Below, in pieces: positions 2,484 through 36,704 of a DNA stretch of 64,000 nt. Each line of letters opens with the position of its first letter. Position 1 is the first letter of the stretch. The notes under the pieces are model-generated. The model searched no databases and was not told the origin of the DNA. It saw only the letters and a list, made by a program, of their open reading frames with translations. This stretch comes from a virus, in the IMG/VR virus record IMGVR_UViG_3300025704_002294, positions 30,201 to 94,200 of that record, one strand, 5' to 3'. The position numbers were made by a program, and so were the translations under genes.

Positions 2484-5400
2484 ATGAAGTTTACTGAAGT
2501 AAAAACATTAGAACATTTATTGAAAGAATACGGAATGTCTAGTTCTGGTTCGCCAACACCTTCCGGGCAACAGCAGTCTGGTAATTTTATAAAAAAAGTT
2601 GCAGGAGATATAGCCAAAAAAGTTGGAGCAAAAGCAAGTTCGGTTGGGCAATCAATGACACAGGCAATAAAAGGAACAGACAGCAAAACAACTCAAAGGA
2701 TAAAAAGTATAGTTCCTCAAAGAGGAGGCAAGATATCTGCAAGTCCTACAATAGGAGGTCAGAAAAACACTCCAGATTCTGTGATTAAAACAAAAGCAGG
2801 AGAAGTAGAAGCAGGTGCAGACATATATGATCAGTATGGTAATTATACAGGCAAAATTGATTCTCCATTAGGAGATAATAAAGCCGGTGGCCCTGAAAAA
2901 ATAGCAATATTAAACAAACAAAACGATTATGAAATCATAGATCCTAATGATGACTTATTTGTATCAAATCCACAAGCAAACGAAGGGAAACTATCTAAAT
3001 TAGCCAAACGCAAAAGCAAACATTCAAGAATAAAAACACTTAGAGGTAAAATTAAAAAATTATCTAAAAAAAGATTAAAAGAAGCAGATCCTAAGTTATT
3101 TGAAATAAATTTTAACAGACAAAATTTAGCAAGACAAAGTTTAGACGCACCTGTGAAATGCGGCTTTGAAGCAGAAACATTTTTCTATAATGTAGATAGT
3201 AGAGGTTCTTCTGACCATATAGACAACATGAGCATCAGTGAAATTGAATACCAATATGGTGATATGCCAGACCAAGTATGGGAAGACTTTGAAGATTGGT
3301 TGTATACTAAAGGACAAGACGAATACCTAGATGACATTATATCTGATAAAGTAGAAGAAGTCAGAGAAGATGAAGACTATCTAAATGACTTTATAGATAG
3401 TGGGGCAGGACCAAGTTCAGAAGCAATCGAAATATACAAAAAAGATTTTGAAGAAAACGATCCAAAAGAATACGAAAACCGTGAGGAAGATGGTTGGGAC
3501 TATATGAACTGGGTCAGAGAATATGTAGAAGAAGAATACGAAGATGAGTATTTGGCTTGGTTAAAAAAAGACGTTGCAGACGGTGATCTAGACGATGAGG
3601 CCAGAGAAGCCGCAAGAGATGATTATAGTGTAGAAGATTGGATATACGACAACTACAGTTACATGAGCAGTTTCCTTGATGATTATGGTTATGAGTATAA
3701 TAGTAGCAGTGAAGGCAATGTTGAAGGTGTTGCAGATGAGTTATACAACTGGATAAAAGATAATAGTAAATTTACAGACTATCCGGAAATAGGTGAGTAT
3801 GACTCCACTAATACCACAACTGCTTGGTCAGTAGAAACTGATAGCAGTATAGAAGCCGATGAAGGAGCAGGTGCAGAATTAATTTCGCCAGTATTTGATT
3901 CACCTAGAAAAATGCTTACAGAAATGAAAAGTTTATTTGACTGGAGTGAAAAAAACTTTGGCACAAACAACTCTACAGGACTACATGTTACTATGAGTTG
4001 GCAAGGTGAAAAAAGAGATTTAGTAAAAACAGACGATGATGAATTTTGGGGAGATGAGGCATCAGAACCAAACAAATTAAAGATGGCATTGCTATTAGGT
4101 GATGAATACTTACTTGCAGAGTTTGGTAGATTGCGTAACAGTTACACAAAAAGTCAATATCAAAATGTATTAAAATATGCAGAAGGCATGAAACGTGGTG
4201 ATGCAAAAAGTTTTGAAGCATTTGAGAAAGAACTTGCTAAAGGCATAGACCCTGGTAAGTTTAACAGTATAAATTTTAAAGGCGAGACTGATAAAGACTC
4301 AGGAAATAACCTTATAGAGTTTAGAATTGCCGGCGGTGTAGACTATAACACAATGTATGATAAAGTTGTTAAAGCATGTGTGAGATATGCTACTGTAATG
4401 AAAGCAGGATATAGTAAAGATGCTTTTAGACCAGAATATGTTAAAGCAGTATTTAGATTATTGCGTAAGTCACAGGAAATAGATCCTAAAAAATTAAAAA
4501 ATTTAGAAGTAGTTAATCACGAAGTAATAGATGCCGCCAAGAGCATTGTAGGCAAAAAAGATTACTTTGATGTAATTAAATTTCTAAGTGCCAGTGTTGA
4601 GTATTTACAAAACTATGAAAAATTAAGTAGTCCAGATGCAGATAAAATATGGAAGCAGGAAATAAAAGATTTCGAAAAAGGTACTGGTACTAAAGTAGAA
4701 ATAGAAGAAGAAACAATCAAAGGATATGTACAGCCTAACAGTATGTCACCAAGCAAGAGAGCGGCAGGCGAATTAGACAAAGCACAAGATAGATTTGGAT
4801 CAGCAGTAACATTATTAGCAAAAGACATAGCAGACGGTAATAACAGAGCACCTGTTACTGCTAAAAACATTGCGTCGTTTAGAAAGTTTGCCAAAGAATT
4901 ACAACTAAACAGTGATAGCATGGAAACACTGGTTTTTTCAAGTATGGAGAATCATAACATTGAAGGTTCTGACAAAGACAAAGTATTAATATTACAAAAA
5001 GGAATAAACACTTTATTCAAGCAAGACATAATTAAAAACCCAGAATATTTATCTCCGCAAGATGTAGACCGCATTGCCAGTAAAATGTGGCAGTTCTATC
5101 AATCAGACGATAGCAAAGATAATGTCAAATTAGATAAACTTGCAGACTTACTGGTTGTTTTAACCCCTGCAAACAAAAAAATAGATGTCGAAAACACATT
5201 AAGAGAATTATCTCATGAAAGACAAGAAAATAGTTTTGTTGCTAAACTGAAAGGCCGTGGATGGAATGTAAGAAACGAGTTATTAAAAAGCAATAGAATT
5301 ACCACAAAAGATTCAGCACAAGAATTATTAAAATTCTTAGAACCATATCAAGGTTACAAACATCCAACAAGCAGAGATCATCATGTTAATATTAAAAGTG

Positions 5401-8400
5401 ATGACAAATATTCAGACGTATTCCAGATGAGGCTCACACAGAGATTAAGAGACAGGTTAGATCATTTGAAAGATCTAGAAAGGGAAGACAAAGAAAAATT
5501 TGTAACTATTGCTAAACAAGTAAGCAAATTAGGATTAGAATTATTGGAAGGCTTAAAACCTAGACCAGATCTTTGGGCCGAAGATGAAAATGGATACACA
5601 CAAATCAACCGTGGCTCCGATGGAGAATCAAACTTGGCTTCGCATAGTAGTTTAGAACGTTGGAACGATGTAATGGACAGGCTTGTAAAAGCAGACAGTG
5701 AAATAGAGGCAGATGAACAAACATTTAATTTGCCTGCTCTTATAGATGATTATGTAGTAGGATCTATGCATATGGATAGATATTTTGCTTGGAAAGAAAA
5801 CAACGGGCCTGAGCAAGGTGCTGTTCTAAGACAATTACATAAAGAAAGATTTGCGGCAATAAAAAAATTCTTATCAGGATTTGATAAAATATTCCAGAAA
5901 GAAGGATTTGTAAATCTTAAACAAGAAATACAAGCAAAAAATACATTAGATAGAAGAAATAGAGACTTTGAAAAGAATGTCAGAGACAACGCAAAAGCAA
6001 AACTTAATATACCAAGTCACAGTTGGGTGTATATAGACCGAGACTTTTTTGATACTATCACAGATGAAGACTATGACGACAGAGAAGCATATTTAGATAG
6101 CAATTTAGATCATTTTAACGACAAAGTAAACCAGAGTAAAGTTTATGTTATACCTTCCAGTCACTGGAGTGATGCCGAAGATGCCACAAACGGTTTAGAA
6201 CTTATAGACACTTTTGAAAAAAATAAAAACTATTATCACACTTGGCGTAAAAAGGGTTATAAAAAAATAGTAAATAGATTCAACAACAAATATGGTTATA
6301 GTTGGAAGGACTTAAATGTCAAAGAAGCATTCATTCAAGGCGATGGTGATGTATACCACAAATTAAAAAATATCGGTATTGAAGTCACTCACAAAGGCGA
6401 CAGCAGAAAAGGTGCACCTGGACAAGACGATTTATTCCCAGATGAAGAAACACAAAATCCCAAAAGCGGTGAACCACTAAACAGAAGCAGTGGTATAAGT
6501 TGGGAAAATATGGATGATGAGGCAGAGCAAAAACGTTTTGATGCATTTGATTGGGAACAGTACCCAGCAAAAATGAAAGATGTAGTTGCTAAAGAAATGG
6601 CCAACAAACAAAGCAGTGGTGGTAGTTTTAAGGTAGCATTAGATAATATACTTAAAAAAGTACTTGACGGCGATGTAGGTATAGACAAAGACGATCTAGG
6701 CAAACCCTTAGACAAGATGGCTATAGCGGCTGGTATTGAACCCGACAATGGTGGTTCCTCAAATGGCATAGCAGGTGAAACAGATTGGGGCAATTTAGCA
6801 GACCATTTAGGAATAGAACGTGGCGTAAATGACCAGGGTGTAAACTTATTGAGAAAAGTATATCAACAGTTTGATGGCGACCACAACTGGAGACCTGCTG
6901 AAACCGACGAGAACGGCAAAAATGTAATTGGATTAGCAAGATGGGGTGCCGCAGTAAGAGATGCAGAAAAATATATCAGAGACAACTACAATGTGAGTGG
7001 TGGTAACTATTTTAGAAAAGATGCAGACGGTAATGATGACGATGATGTAAGCGGAGTATACGGAAGTTCAGATTGGACAAATACAGATTACGATAAAGCC
7101 AGGAAACACAGATTGTTTAATATTATGATGCAACAGGGAATGCAGAATTACTTACCAAAAGGCGAAGTAAATAAATTGGTAGCATTTTTAAACAATCCTC
7201 AGCAAGACACCAACTTTAAGAAAGAGGTTTTAGCAATACTTAGACTTAATGGACCTTTTGATACGTTTATGGGTGCCGTAAATGCGGCAAAAGAAATTTC
7301 ACAAGAAAGTATCTTTACCAAGTTTGATAAACTGCCTTTACAAGAACAGTTGCGTATATTACACGAATCAAATGTATTAGAAAAATTTACAAGAAATGAA
7401 AATACAATAAATACTAATATGAAAAAGTTTAACGAAGGCGAAGAAAGAAGTATTATTGCTAACAGTTGTGTTGAAAAATTAGTAGATGAGTTTAGTGGAA
7501 GAGAAAATCAATTTGCAAACAAAGATGATTTAGAATATGCAATATACCAAGCACTAGAAGACCTAGATGTAGAAGATTGTGTAGACCCAGAGATGGAAGT
7601 AGGCGGACAACCAATTGGGCACTTTGCTAGTGGCAGAGTAATTGATTGTTGCAGTAGCAGTGACATTATATATGATGTTATGGCTCATATGGACGAAACA
7701 CAAATAGGTGAAGCAAAAAAACCAAAAATGCCAAAGCAGAATAATCCAGTAGCAAAGAACAGCAAAAACATGCCAGGTGCTGGCGCACACAAATCACCAA
7801 AAGATTACGATAGAAAAAAAATTAAAGCAGATATCCGCAAAGAATTAGATGACAGTACCTATGTAAATAATATTATGCCTAGTGTTTTTGAAAGATTTGA
7901 AAAATTACCAATACAAAAACAATTAGAATTATTGAACACACCTATTGTTGAGGGTTATTTTAAAAATTTAGATACTATAGACAAAGAACAGAAAAGACTA
8001 GGAGTAGGAAAATATAATAAAGTAAGTAAAAGTGTTAAAAAGCCTGCCGGATCATATAATAAAGAACAGCATATAAAAAATACTTACAACAAGTTTAAAA
8101 CACAACATGGCGAAGTAAAGGCACAGGCTATGTTAAATAAAATGATCGACCGTGGATACTTTGACAAATCAAAAACAGAAAGTTTGTTAGGCATAGATGT
8201 ATTATTAAGAACTAAAAGACTAACAGAAAACATGCCTAACAATAACAAACTTGCTATACTAAAAAAATTATTATCAAAACATTTTCCAGTTGGTAATTTA
8301 GATATGCAATTCCAGGCATATTTAGCATTACCAATACCAAGGATGATGACAGCATTTAGCCAATTAAAAAGCATAGAAGGGCCAGAAGCATGTGGTAGAG

Positions 8401-9548
8401 ACATCCTAATGCATTTTGCAAAAAATAGATTACCAGATGCAGAAGTAAAACAACTTAATCTCAATGAAAGTTATATCAAAGAGGATGCAACAGAAGACAG
8501 ATTAAACAGCATAATGACTGCATTAGAAAAAAATCCAAATTTTGCTAGACGAGTTTACAAAATGTTAAAACTTGATAAAGAGTCTGCAGACCATTTGGAT
8601 ATTGAAGATAGACTTAAAAATAATGACACTGGTAAGGAAAACGATCATAGAATTAATAAGAATATTATGAGACAATTAGTTTTATCACTTGAACAACTAG
8701 ATCATGATTTTGACGAAATAGATGCATTTGTTGAAACTTACGGACATGCAGATTATGTAAACACAGAATTATTAAACAAGTCTGGTGTATTTAAAATTTC
8801 AGACATGTTTGTCGGAACTGATGCAGTATCTAAAGAATTTATAGATGATCTTTATGAAAAATTATTTGACTTTAGAATTAATATATCTGGATCAAACAGA
8901 GGGCCAGGTGAACTTGGATTGTGTTTACTGTCACCTAATGTAGAACTTGCTTCGGTAGGTGATATCAAAGTTAATGGCGAAGAAATAGAAGTTAAAGGTG
9001 AGGTATCGTCAGGTGGCGGTAGAATGGTTAACGGTATTGACGACTTTAAGTTTAGTGGATTAGCACAGGTCAAATCACAACTAGTACCATTTTATGAAAA
9101 GCATGATATTCCAGAAGAATTAAGAATTTACAATTTAAAAGGTGCAGTTGGCGGAGGCCGTAATCAGGGTCAGGCTCATATACTAGATCAAGCACAACAA
9201 TTAGAACAAGTAAAACAAGGTGTAGGTGCTGAATTTTTAAAATTAATTGTTAGCACATATCAATTTGTTATTGACTCAGAAGAAGAAGCAGAATTAACAA
9301 GTTCATTTATGAATATGGATAAGACAAGGTTCTTAACACTTGTAGGATTAATGTCATTTAAAAATTATGCATACATGTTAAACAAAAAAGGATTCAATAG
9401 ATTAATATTTTTAAATTGGAGATATGATAAAGTAGTAAATTGTACAACAGAAGAATTTCCAAAATACAGTGAGCATTTAGCATTTACAAGTTTAGATATG
9501 GCAGACAGTCAAAATGGTCCAGCAGTACAGGTATCAGTGTTAAAATGA
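2484..9548 (+). CDS. 2354-aa multidomain protein: COOH-NH2 ligase (amidoligase type 2) domain, acidic insert, C-terminal PD-(D/E)xK-like domain
   Basis: GFEAE, WSVETDSSI, ELISPV, TNNSTGLHVTMS, KFNSINF, IEFRIAGG (~3160-4340); GPGE...GDIKVNGEEIEVK near C-terminus; MKFTEV leader. Confidence 0.75.
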   Translation: MKFTEVKTLEHLLKEYGMSSSGSPTPSGQQQSGNFIKKVAGDIAKKVGAKASSVGQSMTQAIKGTDSKTTQRIKSIVPQRGGKISASPTIGGQKNTPDSVIKTKAGEVEAGADIYDQYGNYTGKIDSPLGDNKAGGPEKIAILNKQNDYEIIDPNDDLFVSNPQANEGKLSKLAKRKSKHSRIKTLRGKIKKLSKKRLKEADPKLFEINFNRQNLARQSLDAPVKCGFEAETFFYNVDSRGSSDHIDNMSISEIEYQYGDMPDQVWEDFEDWLYTKGQDEYLDDIISDKVEEVREDEDYLNDFIDSGAGPSSEAIEIYKKDFEENDPKEYENREEDGWDYMNWVREYVEEEYEDEYLAWLKKDVADGDLDDEAREAARDDYSVEDWIYDNYSYMSSFLDDYGYEYNSSSEGNVEGVADELYNWIKDNSKFTDYPEIGEYDSTNTTTAWSVETDSSIEADEGAGAELISPVFDSPRKMLTEMKSLFDWSEKNFGTNNSTGLHVTMSWQGEKRDLVKTDDDEFWGDEASEPNKLKMALLLGDEYLLAEFGRLRNSYTKSQYQNVLKYAEGMKRGDAKSFEAFEKELAKGIDPGKFNSINFKGETDKDSGNNLIEFRIAGGVDYNTMYDKVVKACVRYATVMKAGYSKDAFRPEYVKAVFRLLRKSQEIDPKKLKNLEVVNHEVIDAAKSIVGKKDYFDVIKFLSASVEYLQNYEKLSSPDADKIWKQEIKDFEKGTGTKVEIEEETIKGYVQPNSMSPSKRAAGELDKAQDRFGSAVTLLAKDIADGNNRAPVTAKNIASFRKFAKELQLNSDSMETLVFSSMENHNIEGSDKDKVLILQKGINTLFKQDIIKNPEYLSPQDVDRIASKMWQFYQSDDSKDNVKLDKLADLLVVLTPANKKIDVENTLRELSHERQENSFVAKLKGRGWNVRNELLKSNRITTKDSAQELLKFLEPYQGYKHPTSRDHHVNIKSDDKYSDVFQMRLTQRLRDRLDHLKDLEREDKEKFVTIAKQVSKLGLELLEGLKPRPDLWAEDENGYTQINRGSDGESNLASHSSLERWNDVMDRLVKADSEIEADEQTFNLPALIDDYVVGSMHMDRYFAWKENNGPEQGAVLRQLHKERFAAIKKFLSGFDKIFQKEGFVNLKQEIQAKNTLDRRNRDFEKNVRDNAKAKLNIPSHSWVYIDRDFFDTITDEDYDDREAYLDSNLDHFNDKVNQSKVYVIPSSHWSDAEDATNGLELIDTFEKNKNYYHTWRKKGYKKIVNRFNNKYGYSWKDLNVKEAFIQGDGDVYHKLKNIGIEVTHKGDSRKGAPGQDDLFPDEETQNPKSGEPLNRSSGISWENMDDEAEQKRFDAFDWEQYPAKMKDVVAKEMANKQSSGGSFKVALDNILKKVLDGDVGIDKDDLGKPLDKMAIAAGIEPDNGGSSNGIAGETDWGNLADHLGIERGVNDQGVNLLRKVYQQFDGDHNWRPAETDENGKNVIGLARWGAAVRDAEKYIRDNYNVSGGNYFRKDADGNDDDDVSGVYGSSDWTNTDYDKARKHRLFNIMMQQGMQNYLPKGEVNKLVAFLNNPQQDTNFKKEVLAILRLNGPFDTFMGAVNAAKEISQESIFTKFDKLPLQEQLRILHESNVLEKFTRNENTINTNMKKFNEGEERSIIANSCVEKLVDEFSGRENQFANKDDLEYAIYQALEDLDVEDCVDPEMEVGGQPIGHFASGRVIDCCSSSDIIYDVMAHMDETQIGEAKKPKMPKQNNPVAKNSKNMPGAGAHKSPKDYDRKKIKADIRKELDDSTYVNNIMPSVFERFEKLPIQKQLELLNTPIVEGYFKNLDTIDKEQKRLGVGKYNKVSKSVKKPAGSYNKEQHIKNTYNKFKTQHGEVKAQAMLNKMIDRGYFDKSKTESLLGIDVLLRTKRLTENMPNNNKLAILKKLLSKHFPVGNLDMQFQAYLALPIPRMMTAFSQLKSIEGPEACGRDILMHFAKNRLPDAEVKQLNLNESYIKEDATEDRLNSIMTALEKNPNFARRVYKMLKLDKESADHLDIEDRLKNNDTGKENDHRINKNIMRQLVLSLEQLDHDFDEIDAFVETYGHADYVNTELLNKSGVFKISDMFVGTDAVSKEFIDDLYEKLFDFRINISGSNRGPGELGLCLLSPNVELASVGDIKVNGEEIEVKGEVSSGGGRMVNGIDDFKFSGLAQVKSQLVPFYEKHDIPEELRIYNLKGAVGGGRNQGQAHILDQAQQLEQVKQGVGAEFLKLIVSTYQFVIDSEEEAELTSSFMNMDKTRFLTLVGLMSFKNYAYMLNKKGFNRLIFLNWRYDKVVNCTTEEFPKYSEHLAFTSLDMADSQNGPAVQVSVLK

Positions 9549-11575
9549 GATTATACGAAGTAACTAAACCTGGACAATGCCCAAGAACAAAAGCAACCGA
9601 ATGCAGTTGCGAAAGGCTAAGGCAATTATCAGAAGCAGAAAAGCCTATAAAAGCAGTTGCAGTACTAGAACACGGCGATGCTAAAGGCATAATTAATTTT
9701 GTACAAAAGCCAGGTAAAGCAACAATTATAAGCGGTACTATAAGCGGCTTAACAGAAGGCTTACATGGATTTCACATACACGAATTTGGCGATCTCAGTG
9801 ATGGATGCGATAGTGCAGGCGGTCATTATAATCCGCATGGTGTCGATCATGGCGATGTAGATAATGGTCATATCGGCGACTTAGGAAATATAGAAGCCAA
9901 CAGCAAAGGTGTAGCAGAATTTAAAATAAAATCCAAAACAATTCAATTACAAGGTGCCACAAGCATAGTTGGTAGAGCAGTTGTTGTACACCAAGACGAA
10001 GACGACTTAGGCAAAGGCGGCGATGAGGAAAGTTTAAAAACAGGCAACGCAGGTGATAGAGCAGGATGCGGTGTAATAAAATTATCTGAATTAACACAAT
10101 CAGCAATAGCAGATTTAGATAAAAACATTAGCGACAAGCATTTTAGTAGAAATGAAATGCCGCAAGTCAAAGAACCAGATTTAATAGATAATGATATACC
10201 TTATAAAAAAGGCAAAATAAGTGTAACAAATATTAAACCAGTTCAAACAGATAGAGTACCAGGATTAGCACAAAAAGTTGCAGAAGACTTTCACGGTAAA
10301 GACAAGCCTTTTATACTAGATAAAAACAATTACTTGGTTAATGGTCATCATAGATATGATGCGGCTAGATTATTAGGCATAGAAAAAGTAGATGCAATAA
10401 AAGTAAATGTGCCTATTGAATTATTAATGAAACAATTTAGCCATACCACTAGTGATACAATGGTCGAACATCTAAGCGACGAGGCATCAACGCCAGAAAT
10501 ACACAACAAAGCATTGCAAATGGCCAAGGATGCATATAGAAAGTCTAATAAACAAGTGTCATTTACTGCATTATATGATAAGGCACTAAATAAATTACAA
10601 CCCGGAAACCCACCAACAAAACTAAGTCCTGGTTTCAAGTTAGGTAAACTTCCACATGAAGAAGTAGAGTCAGTTATTCATCAATGGGTCAATCAAGAAG
10701 ATCACATAGAATTAAGTAATGGCATGCATGTACTCAGTGGTGAGAATCACGGTTATGATGATAATGTAGCACTAATAGTTGATGCTGATTATAAAATATT
10801 GGACCATGATGATGACATTGTTGAACTAATGCAACAATTCACAGCACAAGAAATAAACCCAAGCATTGTAGAAAACTTTGACGATGGTAAAAAGAAAGGC
10901 AAAAGCAGACCAGGTAGAGTAAAACGTAGTGGAGCAAGTTGCAATGGTAGTGTTACAGCATTACGCAAACGTGCAAAAAACAGCAGTGGTGAAAAAGCAA
11001 AAATGTATCATTGGTGTGCTAATATGAAGTCTGGCAAAAAGAAAACAAATGAAGATATGGAGAATTTATCTCCTAGTGCAAAACTGGCAGGCGAATATAT
11101 TGACAGTGACGTTAAGAGTGGCAAAATTAAAAACCTAGATGACCTCAAAAGATATATAGTAGAATTACGACTTTCAAGGATAATAGATCATGCCGAAGAT
11201 GCCAGAGCACTTTGGATACATCACTTGACCGTCAATCCACACAATTTACCAGATGCAGTCAACGAATCAGCATTTGAAAATTTAAAATTACCAACTTGGA
11301 TGTCACATACCAGTTTAGAAAAATTATTTGCACAAGAGTACGGTCCTAGATACGGTGACTATGTTGCACATATGGACCTAGACAGTGACGACGATTTGGC
11401 AATGAATGCCAGTGGCATGGGTGATATGGCTTTTGAAATGGTTAAAGCAAATGATATCAAAGTTATGCAAAAATTCTTAGCACAAATGCCTGTGCAGTTT
11501 ACAGTAGATGACCTTAGATTAGACGACGGTATTCAAGTTTGGCATCTAGTTCAACAAAACAAAACTGTACACTAA
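9545..11575 (+). CDS. polyprotein: Cu/Zn superoxide dismutase, ParB/Srx-like domain, small basic modules
   Basis: GFHIHEFGD, CDSAGGHYNP, HIGDLGNI, GRAVVVH, TGNAGDRAGCG; LVNGHHRYDAA; MRLYEV leader. Confidence 0.85.
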   Translation: MRLYEVTKPGQCPRTKATECSCERLRQLSEAEKPIKAVAVLEHGDAKGIINFVQKPGKATIISGTISGLTEGLHGFHIHEFGDLSDGCDSAGGHYNPHGVDHGDVDNGHIGDLGNIEANSKGVAEFKIKSKTIQLQGATSIVGRAVVVHQDEDDLGKGGDEESLKTGNAGDRAGCGVIKLSELTQSAIADLDKNISDKHFSRNEMPQVKEPDLIDNDIPYKKGKISVTNIKPVQTDRVPGLAQKVAEDFHGKDKPFILDKNNYLVNGHHRYDAARLLGIEKVDAIKVNVPIELLMKQFSHTTSDTMVEHLSDEASTPEIHNKALQMAKDAYRKSNKQVSFTALYDKALNKLQPGNPPTKLSPGFKLGKLPHEEVESVIHQWVNQEDHIELSNGMHVLSGENHGYDDNVALIVDADYKILDHDDDIVELMQQFTAQEINPSIVENFDDGKKKGKSRPGRVKRSGASCNGSVTALRKRAKNSSGEKAKMYHWCANMKSGKKKTNEDMENLSPSAKLAGEYIDSDVKSGKIKNLDDLKRYIVELRLSRIIDHAEDARALWIHHLTVNPHNLPDAVNESAFENLKLPTWMSHTSLEKLFAQEYGPRYGDYVAHMDLDSDDDLAMNASGMGDMAFEMVKANDIKVMQKFLAQMPVQFTVDDLRLDDGIQVWHLVQQNKTVH

Positions 11576-22068: not shown

Positions 22069-22365
22069 ATGTTAGTAAATAAATCTCATACAAAAGGTGA
22101 CGTTGTCACAATCAAATTAACCAGCGATACAGAAATCATTACACGTTTTATCAGGCAAGATGAAAATGGTATCACAATAGAAAAGCCTATGGCAGTACAA
22201 ATTACTCAACAAGGATTAGGATTAATGCCGTGGTTGTTTAGTGCTGATGCTTCTAAAGAAATTACTATTTCAAATGAAAAAGTGTTTTGCACTATGGATA
22301 CACTAAAGGATCTTGCTGATCAGTATCTTGAAGGCACTACTGGAATAAGTTTAGCAAAGGCTTAA
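22069..22365 (+). CDS. small Sm-like-fold hypothetical protein
   Basis: GDVVTIKL..DTEII...GLGLMPW; TATAAATA 22042-49 and SD GAGGA. Confidence 0.55.
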   Translation: MLVNKSHTKGDVVTIKLTSDTEIITRFIRQDENGITIEKPMAVQITQQGLGLMPWLFSADASKEITISNEKVFCTMDTLKDLADQYLEGTTGISLAKA

Positions 22366-22943
22366 ATAGTAGACAAATCCAAACGGTGTTCAGCAATCAA
22401 AGATTGTTTTTCATCTTCACTTAGTTCTGTTCTACCGGGATTGTTTGGAAATACACAACAAGGTTGCACATTGTAAAAACTGTTATTTTCTTCGCACCAT
22501 TCTCTTCTATAGAACTTGTCAGTACCGTATTTGTCCCATTCGATATGAAGTTTTTTAGCAGGGTCTTGTATTACTGTTATCATATCTTTACCAACTTGCA
22601 CATTAGTATCTCTCTGTAAGCGATCTAAATATCTACCTTCAAATAAACCATAGGCAGGAAATGCCTCAGTATATTCAGGGTGGTCATTATGCCATTGTTC
22701 CATTTCCTGTGGACCAGCCGTTAAAGGCTGATATACACTGAATCTATCTGAATAATTATCACTAATCCATTTCTTTTCATTTTCCCATGGGTCTCCTACA
22801 TCATATTTGCCCATATTAGCAACTTCGTTGCCGTCGGTAATCTTAAGTATGTTGTCGCCGCCGTTATATGACTTGTACATAATATTGTCTATTTTGCAAT
22901 AAACAAAACCTTCTGCTTGATTGTGGGTCCATTCTAGTTTCAT
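22362..22943 (-). CDS. hypothetical protein (start corrected to MKLEWTHN)
   Basis: AATAAATA-CATGT-ATG on minus strand; longer track ORF is antisense to the PAAR gene. Confidence 0.65.
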   Translation of the reverse strand: MKLEWTHNQAEGFVYCKIDNIMYKSYNGGDNILKITDGNEVANMGKYDVGDPWENEKKWISDNYSDRFSVYQPLTAGPQEMEQWHNDHPEYTEAFPAYGLFEGRYLDRLQRDTNVQVGKDMITVIQDPAKKLHIEWDKYGTDKFYRREWCEENNSFYNVQPCCVFPNNPGRTELSEDEKQSLIAEHRLDLSTI

Positions 22944-22974
22944 ACATGTATTTATTATGATAAATAATATTACT

Positions 22975-23238
22975 ATGTCAAAAGCCGCACTTAATGGAAT
23001 ATCAGTTGCAGGAGGTCCTGCAGTTGCATCAGCAACAAAAACAACTATTGAATCTTTACAGCCTGTAAGAATAGACGATTCAGTTACAGGGCACGGTGAT
23101 TCACCGCATGGCAATCCCACAGTTGCAGAAGCCTCATCTAAAGTTAGAATTGAAGGTAAATTTGCTTCAAGAGTAGGAGATGCCGCTTCATGTGGCCATG
23201 CATTAGAAAGTGGTGCTAGTAGAACAAACATTGGATAA
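22975..23238 (+). CDS. PAAR-repeat baseplate spike tip protein (T4 gp5.4-like)
   Basis: PVRIDD..GHGDSPH...ASRVGDAASCGH; GATAAATA 22959-66. Confidence 0.85.
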   Translation: MSKAALNGISVAGGPAVASATKTTIESLQPVRIDDSVTGHGDSPHGNPTVAEASSKVRIEGKFASRVGDAASCGHALESGASRTNIG

Positions 23239-34790: not shown

Positions 34791-36704
34791 ATGGACCGTT
34801 CAAATATCATAGTAGTATACCCAGGTAGATTCCAACCTTTTCACAAAGGACACAAATCAGTGTTCGAACATCTTAAAAAAGACTGGGCAAATGTGTATAT
34901 TGCTACCACAAACAAAGTGCAACCAGGTAAATCACCATTTAACTTTCAAGATAAATTAAATTTTATGCAACTGCTAGGCATCGACAGTAATGAAGTACTA
35001 GAAGTAAAAAATACATACAATGGACAAGAATATATAGACCAATTTGGCAAGAAATTTACTGCTAGTGATACAGGATTGATCATGGTTGTTAGCGAAAAAG
35101 ATATGGTAGATGACCCAAGATTTAACTTTCCTAACATGGGTGTATCACTTAAAAAAGACGGCAATCCTGCATATTTACAAAAATTTACACACGAAGATGA
35201 CATGAAAAGCATGGCTGAGCATGGTTATATTATGACTGCTCCTATCTTTCCATTTAAAATAGCAGGACACGATTTAGATAGTGCTAGTCAAATTAGAGAA
35301 CTAATGAAAGGTGATGAAGAACTAGCAAAACAGGTTTTTGTGGACTTATATGATAAATACAACGAAGACTTATTTAAACTTATACGAGAGAAACTTATGA
35401 TAACTGAACAAGAAATATTAGATTTAAACTATATGCGTAAAATGGCAGGTTTAAACGAAATAGATGTCGAGGACGACGACTATGCAGATGCACCAGGATA
35501 CAAGGAAATGCCTATGTTTGACCAATTAGGAAAAATCATAGACAGTGACGAGATGTCCAAAGATGGCGATGACATAAAAAATCCTAAATCAACTGTGAAA
35601 ACAGATGACGGTTCAGAAGTTGAAGTAAGTGTAGGCGAAGCAAAAGCAGTTAGAAAAATGTTAAACATGCTGGGCTCTAATAGAGGAGCAGATGCAAAAT
35701 CACCTAGAGAAAAGTTTCAAGATGCAATTCAAAAAGAAGAAGGTTTAACAAATATGATTGAATTTGCTAATTCAAAAGGATTAGTAGAAGAAAGTGACGT
35801 AGTAGACAGTGAGGAATACGCATTAGAAGATTTAGACTTAAATGATATCAGATATGACTATGGTGTTAAGCCAGTATCAGAAGGTGGCAATGCATTTGAT
35901 ATAGCAATGACAGATTCAGAAGATATTATTATGACATGCCAAGATCAAGAAGAATGTTTAAAAGAGTTAGAAGCATTAATAGTAGATAATGCAGATGAGT
36001 GGGATAGCAAATATGCAAACGAAGTAGTGCAAGACTACATCACATTGGTAGTTGATAAAGGTATTGAAGGTGCCAAAGAATATGTAGAGCAACAAGATAA
36101 AGAACCAGAAGGTGCACCATTAGAAAGTAAAGGTTCAAAGCCTGACTACATTGATATAGACGGCGATGGCGACAAAGAAGAGCCAATGAAAAAAGCAGTC
36201 AAAGATAAAAACAAGAAAGACGAAAGTTTTGACGCAAGTGCAGAACAAAGTCGTGAAGAAGAAGCATACGAAGAATTAATGAATGCCCTACAAAGTGGTG
36301 GTGAAGAAGCATACGCAGAAGCATGTGGTTTATCAATGGAAGAACTTGATCAGGAAATGGGCGAGATTTCCAGAGACTTAAACTTACACATGGATGATGA
36401 CAGAGATGAAATTATTCAAAGACATGCTGAAGATACTGTAGATAGTGCAGATTGGAAAGACCATGGCGAACCTGAAGTAGACGAAGATATTCAAAGAATG
36501 CGAGACCTAGCAGGATTAGGTGAAATGTTAGGTAAGGATGGTAAAAAGCCAGGAGTACCTTATAGCAAATCTACTCAAAAAGATTTAGATGACAGAATAG
36601 CAGTCGCAACTCCTCCTAAAGGCGATACTGGCGAAGCAGATGCAGAAGAAGGTGAAACAGCACGTTTCTTAAGACATATGAAAAATATAAAGAAAGCAAA
36701 GTAA
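34791..36704 (+). CDS. HxGH nucleotidyltransferase domain fused to acidic head-cargo-type modules
   Basis: YPGRFQPFHKGH...SASQIR; two RxxAGL motifs; DIDGDGD EF-hand-like; GATAAATA + 5 nt + ATG. Confidence 0.75.
   Translation: MDRSNIIVVYPGRFQPFHKGHKSVFEHLKKDWANVYIATTNKVQPGKSPFNFQDKLNFMQLLGIDSNEVLEVKNTYNGQEYIDQFGKKFTASDTGLIMVVSEKDMVDDPRFNFPNMGVSLKKDGNPAYLQKFTHEDDMKSMAEHGYIMTAPIFPFKIAGHDLDSASQIRELMKGDEELAKQVFVDLYDKYNEDLFKLIREKLMITEQEILDLNYMRKMAGLNEIDVEDDDYADAPGYKEMPMFDQLGKIIDSDEMSKDGDDIKNPKSTVKTDDGSEVEVSVGEAKAVRKMLNMLGSNRGADAKSPREKFQDAIQKEEGLTNMIEFANSKGLVEESDVVDSEEYALEDLDLNDIRYDYGVKPVSEGGNAFDIAMTDSEDIIMTCQDQEECLKELEALIVDNADEWDSKYANEVVQDYITLVVDKGIEGAKEYVEQQDKEPEGAPLESKGSKPDYIDIDGDGDKEEPMKKAVKDKNKKDESFDASAEQSREEEAYEELMNALQSGGEEAYAEACGLSMEELDQEMGEISRDLNLHMDDDRDEIIQRHAEDTVDSADWKDHGEPEVDEDIQRMRDLAGLGEMLGKDGKKPGVPYSKSTQKDLDDRIAVATPPKGDTGEADAEEGETARFLRHMKNIKKAK

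What the first reader, a model, noticed from the sequence alone, without database searches (positions are those of the whole stretch)
7406..7877. Two in-frame leaderless starts hidden inside the 2354-aa gene
Seen: AATAAATA(7406-13)-CTAAT-ATG(7419) gives MKKFNE, and TGTAAATA(7862-69)-ATATT-ATG(7875) gives MPSVFE. Both are in frame, have the exact 5-nt spacing and sit at apparent module boundaries. The second precedes SVFERFEKLPIQKQLELL, a diverged copy of SIFTKFDKLPLQEQLRIL (~7310-7360). Inference: either nested C-terminal isoforms are made, or the giant gene grew by capturing whole promoter-plus-gene units, which would explain how the polyproteins assemble. A weaker case is GATAAATA 35352-59 ahead of in-frame ATG 35397.
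Basis: partly seen in the sequence, partly recalled or inferred. Interest (0 to 1): 0.7.

Follow-up and report, generated by a model that had tools for sequence, protein, structure and literature searches.

The report
In-frame late promoter inside giant gene
A giant phage gene carries, in its own reading frame, a copy of the phage's late promoter placed so that transcription would start on an internal ATG; many distant marine relatives keep this at the same spot, so the last quarter of the protein is probably also made on its own.

Summary
Both sites are real and in frame in the 2354-aa ORF (2484-9548) of a fragment (about 26% complete) of a marine jumbo phage.

**The signal in this genome.** ATAAATA-N5-start is a true start signal here. 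About 17 long ORFs begin that way, and T4 late-promoter geometry puts +1 on the A of the ATG.

**The two sites.**
- Site 1 (7406-7421) scores 19.8 bits, like a median bona fide promoter.
- Site 2 (7862-7877, G at -12) scores 10.0 bits, below every bona fide promoter.

**Comparative evidence.**
- A metagenome search that did not specify the box found about 40 homologous giant genes in four deep clades (23-36% aa identity).
- Every one has [G/A/C]ATAAATA-N5-ATG in frame just before the same conserved C-terminal block.
- Codon choices show selection on the DNA.
- Elsewhere in these genes the heptamer is about 14-fold depleted.

**Reading.** This is a conserved internal late promoter with a leaderless nested start. 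It would give a 709-aa isoform, and possibly a 557-aa one.

**Limits.**
- No free-standing gene starts at these Mets.
- The weaker case at 35352 is not supported.
- No transcript or protein data exist.
- This scan has not reported it on other DNA.

The parts
2484..9548 (+). Giant ORF of 2354 aa (P0001). It is a mosaic multi-module protein. It follows an upstream ORF whose stops (TGA, then TAA) directly precede its ATG, and sits about 1 kb downstream of a leadered late box at 1519.
   Evidence: It stays a single ORF of about 2200-2300 aa in relatives L001-L008.
7305..7361 (+). mod1, the first copy of the conserved motif (ES-IFTKFDKLPLQEQLRIL). It is 'type I': no Met and no box in front.
7406..7421 (+). 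Site 1: late box AATAAATA (-13..-6), then CTAAT, then in-frame ATG (Met1646). It predicts a leaderless mRNA and a 709-aa isoform.
   Evidence: PWM score 19.8 bits, rank 9 of 188,358 positions, equal to the median of bona fide gene-start promoters. The 21-mer AATAAATACTAATATGAAAAA is identical to the internal site of relatives L005-7 and L099.
7434..7712 (+). Module A (EGEERSII...MAHMDETQIGE), a mobile domain of about 93 aa inserted after site 1.
   Evidence: Found at 50-84% identity at varied positions in many proteins of different architecture, always after an [I/L]xE-like junction. Absent from relatives L002-L008.
7713..7847 (+). Module B (basic peptide AKKPKMPKQNNPVAK...KADIRKEL).
   Evidence: Shared with L002-4, L098 and L141 and with other proteins.
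7862..7877 (+). Site 2: sub-consensus box TGTAAATA (G at -12), then ATATT, then in-frame ATG (Met1798). It is the positional ortholog of the conserved internal promoter/start and predicts a 557-aa isoform.
   Evidence: PWM score 10.0 bits, rank 28, below the training minimum of 12.4. L141 has the same G variant.
7884..7934 (+). mod2, the second copy of the motif (VFERFEKLPIQKQLELL). It is 'type II', directly after the internal Met.
7875..9545 (+). Conserved C-terminal block (mod2 plus about 200 aa plus a nuclease-like domain). It is the unit that would be expressed from the internal start.
   Evidence: The same block lies behind other N-terminal parts in P0003, L101, L105 and L108.
8469..9545 (+). 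C-terminal 359-aa domain with invariant GPGE...GD...E-x-K. It occurs as a free-standing late gene of about 350 aa in distant relatives. It has a possible restriction-endonuclease-like fold.
   Evidence: AF2 pLDDT 89.4. Only weak fold matches: HhaI Z 4.4, HinP1I Z 4.1, MspI Z 3.5. Foldseek and Pfam found nothing.
35352..35399 (+). The 'weaker case': GATAAATA, then 37 nt, then an in-frame ATG inside the cytidylyltransferase-like gene. It is not supported as a nested start.
   Evidence: The box is kept only where the peptide YDKYN is kept. The ATG is not conserved in relatives at 52-56% identity. Both are absent at 35% identity.

Best explanation
The giant gene contains a functional internal late promoter written into its own reading frame.

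**How it would work.**
- The 8-bp T4-type late box occupies -13 to -6 and is followed by exactly 5 nt and an in-frame ATG. RNA polymerase with a gp55-type late sigma would therefore start on the A of that ATG.
- The resulting mRNA is leaderless and is translated from its 5' end.
- The product is a nested C-terminal isoform: the conserved motif, about 200 aa, and a nuclease-like domain. It is made in addition to the full-length protein.

**In this window.**
- Site 1 (7406-7421) is the strong copy and would give a 709-aa product that also carries two inserted mobile modules, A and B.
- Site 2 (7862-7877) is the positional ortholog of the site conserved in relatives. Its box is weakened (G at -12), so it may be weakly active or decaying.
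- The two copies most likely arose when two lineages of the gene, each with the internal promoter, recombined in the hypervariable linker.

**What is shown and what is inferred.**
- Shown: the sequence anatomy, conservation with selection at the DNA level, and avoidance of the box elsewhere.
- Inferred: transcription from the sites, leaderless translation, and the role of the short form. One possibility is a form lacking the N-terminal head-targeting-like leader that acts in the infected cell rather than being packaged. Another is extra copies of the C-terminal cargo.
For: **1. The signal is a real start signal in this genome.**
- Of 51 ATAAATA heptamers in the 94-kb contig, about 20 lie 5-6 nt before the start codon of a long ORF. 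Most others lie 19-56 nt upstream of SD-led starts.
- The T4 late box spans -13 to -6, so N5 puts +1 on the ATG (PMC2988020).
- Related Rak2-like jumbo phages have a predicted ATAAATA late motif and a gp55-like sigma (PMC5259590).
- A complete 328-kb relative has a gp55-like gene, E 1.6e-23.

**2. Site 1 scores like a real promoter.** It scores 19.8 bits against a training median of 19.6.

**3. The box is conserved without having been asked for.**
- The metagenome pattern specified only ATG-x-x-[IV]FE.F[DE].L...Q, not the box.
- Every true homolog has TAAATA invariant at -11..-6, A at -12 in 27 of 29, and G at -13 in 18 of 29. That is 40 loci, 29 distinct segments and 4 clades at 23-36% aa identity.
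- All lie deep inside long ORFs.

**4. The constraint is on the DNA.**
- The residue before Ile varies (T, M, A, R, K, Q), but its third base is G, through codons that are rare in these genes: ACG 4%, GCG 4%, AGG 7%, AAG 17%.
- Ser is always AGT, Ile always ATA and Asn always AAT.

**5. The box is avoided elsewhere.** In 32 distinct giant ORFs (158 kb) the heptamer occurs 35 times in frame 0, and 33 of these are this site. It occurs 0 times in frame 1 (21.8 expected) and 4 times antisense (36.1 expected).

**6. The Met always accompanies the box.** In the protein search, which was not biased by the pattern, all 8 'type II' representatives carry Met at the N5 position. No box without Met was seen.
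Against: - There are no RNA 5' ends and no peptides. The evidence is entirely comparative.
- The own contig (26% complete) shows no credible gp55; the best hit has E 0.005 and lies inside a structural gene.
- About three quarters of homologous clusters ('type I') lack both box and Met, as do L002-4 and L008 in the window's own clade. The feature is therefore dispensable.
- The ATG was part of the metagenome pattern, so its invariance there is by construction.
- Site 2 scores below all bona fide promoters.
- A conserved in-frame box without an ATG at N5 exists in another gene family. Internal boxes therefore need not mean nested proteins.
Confidence: 0.68

Rival explanations
1. The boxes are functional internal promoters, but their purpose is to re-supply transcripts for the 3' part of the operon. 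That would include the translationally coupled SodC-ParB gene at 9545 and beyond, after a 7-kb gene. The nested protein would be an unselected by-product or not made at all.
For: - The gene at 9545 overlaps the giant gene's stop and has no box of its own.
- A conserved in-frame GATAAATA without an ATG at N5 exists in relatives of the cytidylyltransferase-like gene.
Against: - A promoter alone needs no ATG at +1 and no particular frame.
- Yet all 8 representative clusters from the unbiased protein search have Met exactly at N5, in frame.
- No out-of-frame box-N5-ATG exists in 158 kb of giant ORFs.
Confidence: 0.15
2. The sites are evolutionary scars. Free-standing late genes, each with a leaderless promoter, were fused into the polyprotein by recombination at promoter boxes. 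The motifs persist without present function.
For: - The linker is mosaic, and modules A and B are mobile.
- The cassette is found behind different N-terminal parts.
- Module A can sit at the N-terminus of free-standing genes such as P0042 and P0078.
- The box was lost in L002-4 and L008.
Against: - A neutral scar would not stay invariant across clades at 23-36% aa identity while flanking codons change.
- It would not hold rare G-ending codons at -13.
- It would not survive in genes that otherwise purge the heptamer about 14-fold.
- No free-standing gene starting at the conserved motif was found.
Confidence: 0.1
3. Chance, or a protein-level motif. I-N-[ST]-x-M would be a conserved peptide (a linker or cleavage site) that happens to spell the box in an AT-rich genome.
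For: - The peptide is short.
- ATA (54%) and AAT (66%) are the commonest codons for Ile and Asn in these genes.
Against: - The variable residue before Ile keeps a rare G-ending codon, and Ser is never TCN.
- In the window, 2 in-frame hits compare with 0.094 expected.
- The heptamer is depleted everywhere else.
- Random non-homologous hits of the same pattern have no box.
Confidence: 0.05

Closest known systems
Shigella virF: an internal promoter gives a leaderless mRNA translated into the shorter VirF21 (PMC5101355, title and abstract)
   Same: It is one gene with two in-frame proteins. The short one comes from a leaderless transcript that starts inside the coding sequence.
   Different: That is a cellular regulator read by the host's own RNA polymerase. 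Here it is a phage late (T4-type) box, in a giant multi-module virion-cargo-like gene, conserved across many phage lineages. Expression here is inferred, not shown.
T4-type late promoters (TATAAATA at -13..-6, gp55/gp33/gp45; PMC2988020) and the ATAAATA late motif of Rak2-like jumbo phages such as CBB (PMC5259590)
   Same: The box and position are the same, and variation at -13/-12 is tolerated. The terminase is closest to the PA5oct and Rak2-like jumbo phages (57% identity).
   Different: From my own knowledge, T4 late mRNAs normally carry a leader with an SD. Here about 20 boxes sit exactly 5-6 nt from the start codon. In this finding the box is written into a reading frame.
Nested in-frame phage genes (lambda C/Nu3, T7 4A/4B, T4 gene 49 and 17 products; recalled from my own knowledge, not checked here)
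   Same: A C-terminal part of a phage protein is also made separately from an internal in-frame start.
   Different: As I recall, most of these use an internal ribosome-binding site on the same mRNA. Here a dedicated internal promoter is predicted to create the 5' AUG.
Polyvalent proteins and head-packaged internal proteins of large phages (Iyer, Aravind et al., recalled; T4 internal proteins with capsid-targeting leaders cleaved after L/I-x-E, recalled)
   Same: It is a giant protein built from shuffled enzymatic and small modules. Module junctions resemble [L/I]xE sites, and N-termini resemble short targeting leaders.
   Different: Packaging and cleavage were not tested here. Pfam recognises none of its domains. 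To my knowledge an internal promoter has not been described for such proteins.

Membership tests
T4-type late promoter | An 8-bp box matching TATAAATA about one helical turn upstream of +1 (-13..-6), with variation tolerated at -13/-12 | tested here: met
   Site 1 is AATAAATA; A at -13 is a known T4 variant, and it scores 19.8 bits. Site 2 is TGTAAATA with G at -12, not seen at bona fide starts here; C or T at -12 is seen at three of them.
T4-type late promoter | The phage encodes a gp55-type late sigma, plus the gp33 and gp45 partners | tested here: inconclusive
   phrog_234 gives only E 0.005, inside a structural gene, in the own contig, which is 26% complete. A gp55-like gene (E 1.6e-23) is present in the complete 328-kb distant relative G003. 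gp33 and gp45 were not searched.
T4-type late promoter | Transcripts start at the predicted +1 late in infection | not testable with these tools
   No RNA data. The phage is uncultured.
Leaderless mRNA start | The start codon lies at the transcript's 5' end, with no room for an SD | tested here: met
   This is geometry only. N5 between box and ATG holds at both sites and at about 17 gene starts. The 5' end itself is not mapped.
Nested in-frame gene (internal isoform) | An internal start in frame, conserved among relatives beyond what the protein sequence requires | tested here: met
   29 distinct segments, 4 deep clades, DNA-level constraint, and no other-frame copies.
Nested in-frame gene (internal isoform) | The short protein is detected | not testable with these tools
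   No proteomic data.
Gene fusion by capture of a promoter-plus-gene unit | Relatives have a free-standing gene that starts at the same Met with the same promoter | tested here: not met
   In about 40 homologous loci the Met is always internal or the contig ends. Only the distal 359-aa domain is free-standing, with a different leadered start. Module A can lie near the N-terminus of free-standing genes, but behind another leader.
PD-(D/E)xK restriction-endonuclease-like nuclease (C-terminal domain) | The core fold, with a D...(D/E)-x-K catalytic motif | tested here: inconclusive
   D165, E174 and K176 are invariant in 18 sequences. The best structural matches are HhaI, HinP1I and MspI, but only at Z 4.4-3.5. 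Foldseek gave nothing below E 0.001. The PDB sequence search and Pfam gave nothing.
Amidoligase domain (N-terminal part) | A match to the family profile | tested here: inconclusive
   No Pfam hit for residues 200-780, even at E<=1. The only evidence is motif-level resemblance (GFEAE, ELISP, GLHV) and 27-29% matches to hypothetical proteins of jumbo phages RsoM2USA and Atu_ph07.

The most novel reading that the evidence does not exclude
A clade of marine jumbo phages uses an in-frame, leaderless late promoter as a built-in 'splitter' in giant head-cargo polyprotein genes. The full-length product, with its N-terminal targeting-like leader, would be packaged and delivered to the next host. The promoter-driven C-terminal nuclease-like isoform, lacking that leader, would stay and act in the current infected cell. 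The same promoter-ATG cassette would also serve as the recombination joint by which modules are shuffled between polyproteins.
Probability: 0.2. Interest if true: 0.85.

Novelty: new variant of a known kind. Interest (0 to 1): 0.66.

Why it matters
- It would add a transcriptional route to nested proteins in phages: a promoter encoded as amino acids (I-N-T/S-x-M) that creates a leaderless start.
- It shows that gene callers miss real products inside giant phage ORFs.
- The strong purging of the heptamer elsewhere in these genes is an independent, sequence-only sign that the box is read wherever it occurs. This could be used to find promoters in uncultured phages.
- It gives a concrete, testable handle on how giant multi-module (polyvalent, cargo-like) proteins are expressed and reshuffled.

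Tried and rejected
DNA for representative proteins P0003, P0006, P0007, P0056 and P0058 could not be fetched directly. A box-free DNA pattern scan of metagenomes was used instead.
- **GenBank phages.** There was no DNA match and no protein match for the C-terminal 709 aa. The N-terminal part had only weak hits to jumbo-phage hypothetical proteins.
- **P0007 in IMG/VR.** No relative found.
- **Family and structure searches for the giant protein.** Pfam and PHROGs gave nothing for the whole protein or six pieces. A PDB sequence search gave nothing credible. Foldseek gave nothing.
- **gp55 in the own contig.** No credible hit.
- **The weaker case at 35352.** Rejected as a nested start. The ATG at 35397 is not conserved, the spacing is 37 nt, and the box is lost in relatives at 35% identity.
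- **A second example that was not one.** I first thought relatives L160-L183 had an upstream gene fused in frame to the cytidylyltransferase-like gene. This was wrong: the open frame simply begins inside that gene's own promoter box.
- **Module A.** It is not repeated elsewhere in this contig.
- **Literature.** Full-text searches found no paper describing in-frame leaderless late promoters in phage genes.

Full report
**What is in the sequence.**
- The window is bases 30201-94200 of a 94.2-kb viral contig. CheckV rates the contig about 26% complete.
- Its large terminase is closest (57% identity) to Pseudomonas jumbo phage PA5oct and its kin. It also carries UvsX-, gp32- and gp41-like genes. 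So this is a fragment of an uncultured marine jumbo phage with T4-like replication and packaging genes.
- The ORF 2484-9548 encodes 2354 aa.
- AATAAATA (7406-13), CTAAT and ATG (7419) are exactly as described, and so are TGTAAATA (7862-69), ATATT and ATG (7875). Both ATGs are in frame, as Met1646 and Met1798.
- The two copies of the motif S-[IV]-F-x-x-F-[DE]-K-L-P-[LI]-Q-x-Q-L are real paralogous segments: 37-40% identity, E 1e-4 to 3e-6 against the contig.

**Is the box a real signal here?**
- TAAATA-N5-ATG occurs 14 times in the window against 2.9 expected.
- Of 21 hits in the contig, about 16 sit at the first ATG of a long ORF with a stop a few codons upstream.
- Of all 51 ATAAATA heptamers, about 20 lie 5-6 nt before a start codon. 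Most others lie 19-56 nt upstream of starts that have an SD.
- The T4 late promoter is an 8-bp box at -13 to -6 with tolerated variation at -13/-12 (PMC2988020). N5 spacing therefore puts +1 on the A of the ATG.
- Rak2-like jumbo phages have a predicted ATAAATA late motif and a gp55-like sigma (PMC5259590).
- I found no credible gp55 in this incomplete contig. A complete 328-kb distant relative has one.

**How good are the two sites?**
- I built a weight matrix from 17 gene-start promoters.
- Site 1 scores 19.8 bits, rank 9 of 188,358 positions. The training median is 19.6.
- Site 2 scores 10.0 bits, rank 28, below the training minimum of 12.4. The cause is G at -12. C or T at -12 does occur at three real starts, including the terminase gene.
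- Codon shuffles of the giant gene give 0.094 in-frame hits on average. Two or more arise in 10 of 2000 shuffles.

**Relatives.**
- Eight IMG/VR loci at 82-100% identity keep one ORF of about 2200-2300 aa.
- The linker between the two motif copies is hypervariable and mosaic.
- L005-7 carry the identical 21-mer AATAAATACTAATATGAAAAA directly before the second motif copy. L002-4 and L008 have neither box nor Met.
- An exhaustive profile-free search of 1.8 billion representatives showed four things:
  - The roughly 93 aa after site 1 (module A) is a mobile domain. It is present at 50-84% identity at varied positions in many unrelated architectures, always after an [I/L]xE-like junction.
  - Module B is likewise mobile.
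  - The last 359 aa occur as free-standing genes of about 350 aa.
  - The C-terminal block also occurs behind a SodC-ParB protein (P0003).
- Among 35 representative proteins with the motif, 8 are 'type II', preceded by x-I-N-[ST]-x-M-x-x. The rest are 'type I', with no Met and no box.

**The decisive test.**
- I scanned metagenome contigs with a DNA pattern that encodes only M-x-x-[IV]-F-E-x-F-[DE]-x-L-x-x-x-x-Q. It says nothing about the bases upstream of the ATG.
- All hits that are true homologs carry TAAATA at -11..-6 without exception. There are 40 loci and 29 distinct 90-nt segments. A is at -12 in 27 of 29, with G in L141 and in the window's site 2. At -13 the counts are G 18, A 8, C 2 and T 1.
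- They fall into four clades that share only 23-36% aa identity over the 450 aa after the Met.
- The Met is always deep in a long ORF, with 200-2000 open codons upstream, unless the contig ends.
- Random non-homologous hits of the pattern have no box.
- The constraint is on the DNA:
  - The residue before Ile varies (T, M, A, R, K, Q), yet its codon ends in G, using ACG, GCG, AGG, AAG or CAG. These make up 4%, 4%, 7%, 17% and 19% of their codon families in these genes.
  - Ser is always AGT, never TCN.
  - Ile is always ATA and Asn always AAT.
- In 32 distinct giant ORFs (158 kb), box-N5-ATG occurs 33 times, all in frame and all at this site, against 2.0 expected.
- The bare heptamer is otherwise almost absent. 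It occurs twice more in frame 0 (about 25 expected in all), 0 times in frame 1 (21.8 expected) and 4 times antisense (36.1 expected).
- Genes that purge the box everywhere but keep it at one place, with an ATG exactly at +1 and in frame, are best explained by a functional internal promoter and start.

**Reading of this window.**
- Site 2 is the positional ortholog of the conserved site. The arrangement B module, box, motif also occurs in L098 (perfect box) and L141 (the same G variant).
- Site 1 is the sequence ortholog of the site in the L099 and L005 lineage. About 29 nt are alike with one mismatch. It is now separated from the motif by modules A and B.
- A recombinant origin for the double site is therefore likely. 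This is inference.
- Predicted products are 709 aa from 7419 and, if site 2 still fires, 557 aa from 7875.
- The giant gene's own start has no box. It follows an upstream ORF whose stops (TGA, then TAA) directly precede its ATG, and sits about 1 kb downstream of a leadered box at 1519.

**What the short form might do (inference).**
- The C-terminal 359 aa fold confidently (pLDDT 89.4).
- They have invariant GPGE...GD...E-x-K.
- The best but weak structural neighbours are the restriction enzymes HhaI, HinP1I and MspI, at Z 4.4-3.5. Foldseek, Pfam and the PDB sequence search are silent.
- Free-standing versions in distant phages are late-box genes with 20-24 nt leaders. Their N-termini resemble short targeting leaders.
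- The internal isoform would lack the giant protein's N-terminal leader. That suggests a different fate from the full-length form, but nothing here tests it.

**Limits.**
- No RNA or protein evidence exists.
- The ATG was part of the metagenome pattern. Its conservation rests on the unbiased protein set, where 8 of 8 type II representatives have it.
- Most lineages lack the feature, and L002-4 and L008 in the window's own clade lack it.
- A conserved in-frame GATAAATA without an ATG at N5 in another gene family shows that internal boxes can exist for transcription alone.

**The weaker case at 35352.** It is not supported. The box persists only where the peptide YDKYN persists. The ATG at 35397 is not conserved at 52-56% identity. 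Both vanish at 35% identity.

**Earlier notes of this scan.** Notes on the same genome had already proposed genome-wide leaderless late starts and a cargo polyprotein. My counts agree with the first. I tested the second only in part.

Noticed in passing
L160-L183 (relatives of window gene 34791-36704), about 390-440 nt into the ORF: There is a conserved in-frame GATAAATA encoding Q-[MK]-I-N-[TS], with the rare AAG codon where the residue is Lys. No ATG lies at N5; AAG, GAG or AGA follow instead. It may be a conserved internal late promoter without a nested start. The window's own copy of the gene lacks it.
   Followed up: partly
window 22943-22958 (- strand), inside ORF 22362..23231(-): AATAAATA-CATGT-ATG scores 19.7 bits (rank 10) and is in frame, with 100 open codons upstream. 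It is either the true start of a 193-aa gene or a third nested in-frame start. A + strand box at 22960 faces it.
   Followed up: no
32 giant ORFs from L049 and L074-L146 plus window 2484-9548: The late-box heptamer ATAAATA is about 14-fold depleted in sense and antisense outside the one conserved site: 6 observed against about 83 expected from codon shuffles.
   Followed up: yes
window 7434-7712; proteins P0013-P0078: Module A (EGEERSII...) is a widely shuffled domain of about 93 aa with conserved Cys and Asp residues. It is found in dozens of marine phage proteins, always after [I/L]-x-E-like junctions and ending in ...[IL]-x-E. This looks like prohead-protease-type cleavage sites delimiting polyprotein modules.
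   Followed up: partly
P0003; L101, L105, L108: The same X-module, box-ATG and C-terminal block cassette is joined to different N-terminal parts. In P0003 it follows the SodC-ParB protein, which in this window is the separate downstream gene 9545-11575.
   Followed up: partly
contig-wide, e.g. window 1519, 13848, 22043, 30783 against 16481, 34780, 37144, 42128(-): There are two classes of late-box genes. Leaderless genes have the box 5-6 nt from the start codon. Leadered genes have the box 19-56 nt upstream with an SD such as AGGAG. The host therefore uses SD, and leaderless starts are a phage choice.
   Followed up: partly
L045, ORF aa 1179: A type I giant gene has ATTAAATA-CACCT-ATG in frame, about 70 aa downstream of the conserved motif. 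Its sister L044 lacks it. It may be chance or an independent gain.
   Followed up: no
whole contig: IMG/VR classes the record as 'provirus'. CheckV completeness is 26%, implying a genome of about 360 kb. The gene content looks like a lytic T4-like jumbo phage rather than a prophage.
   Followed up: no
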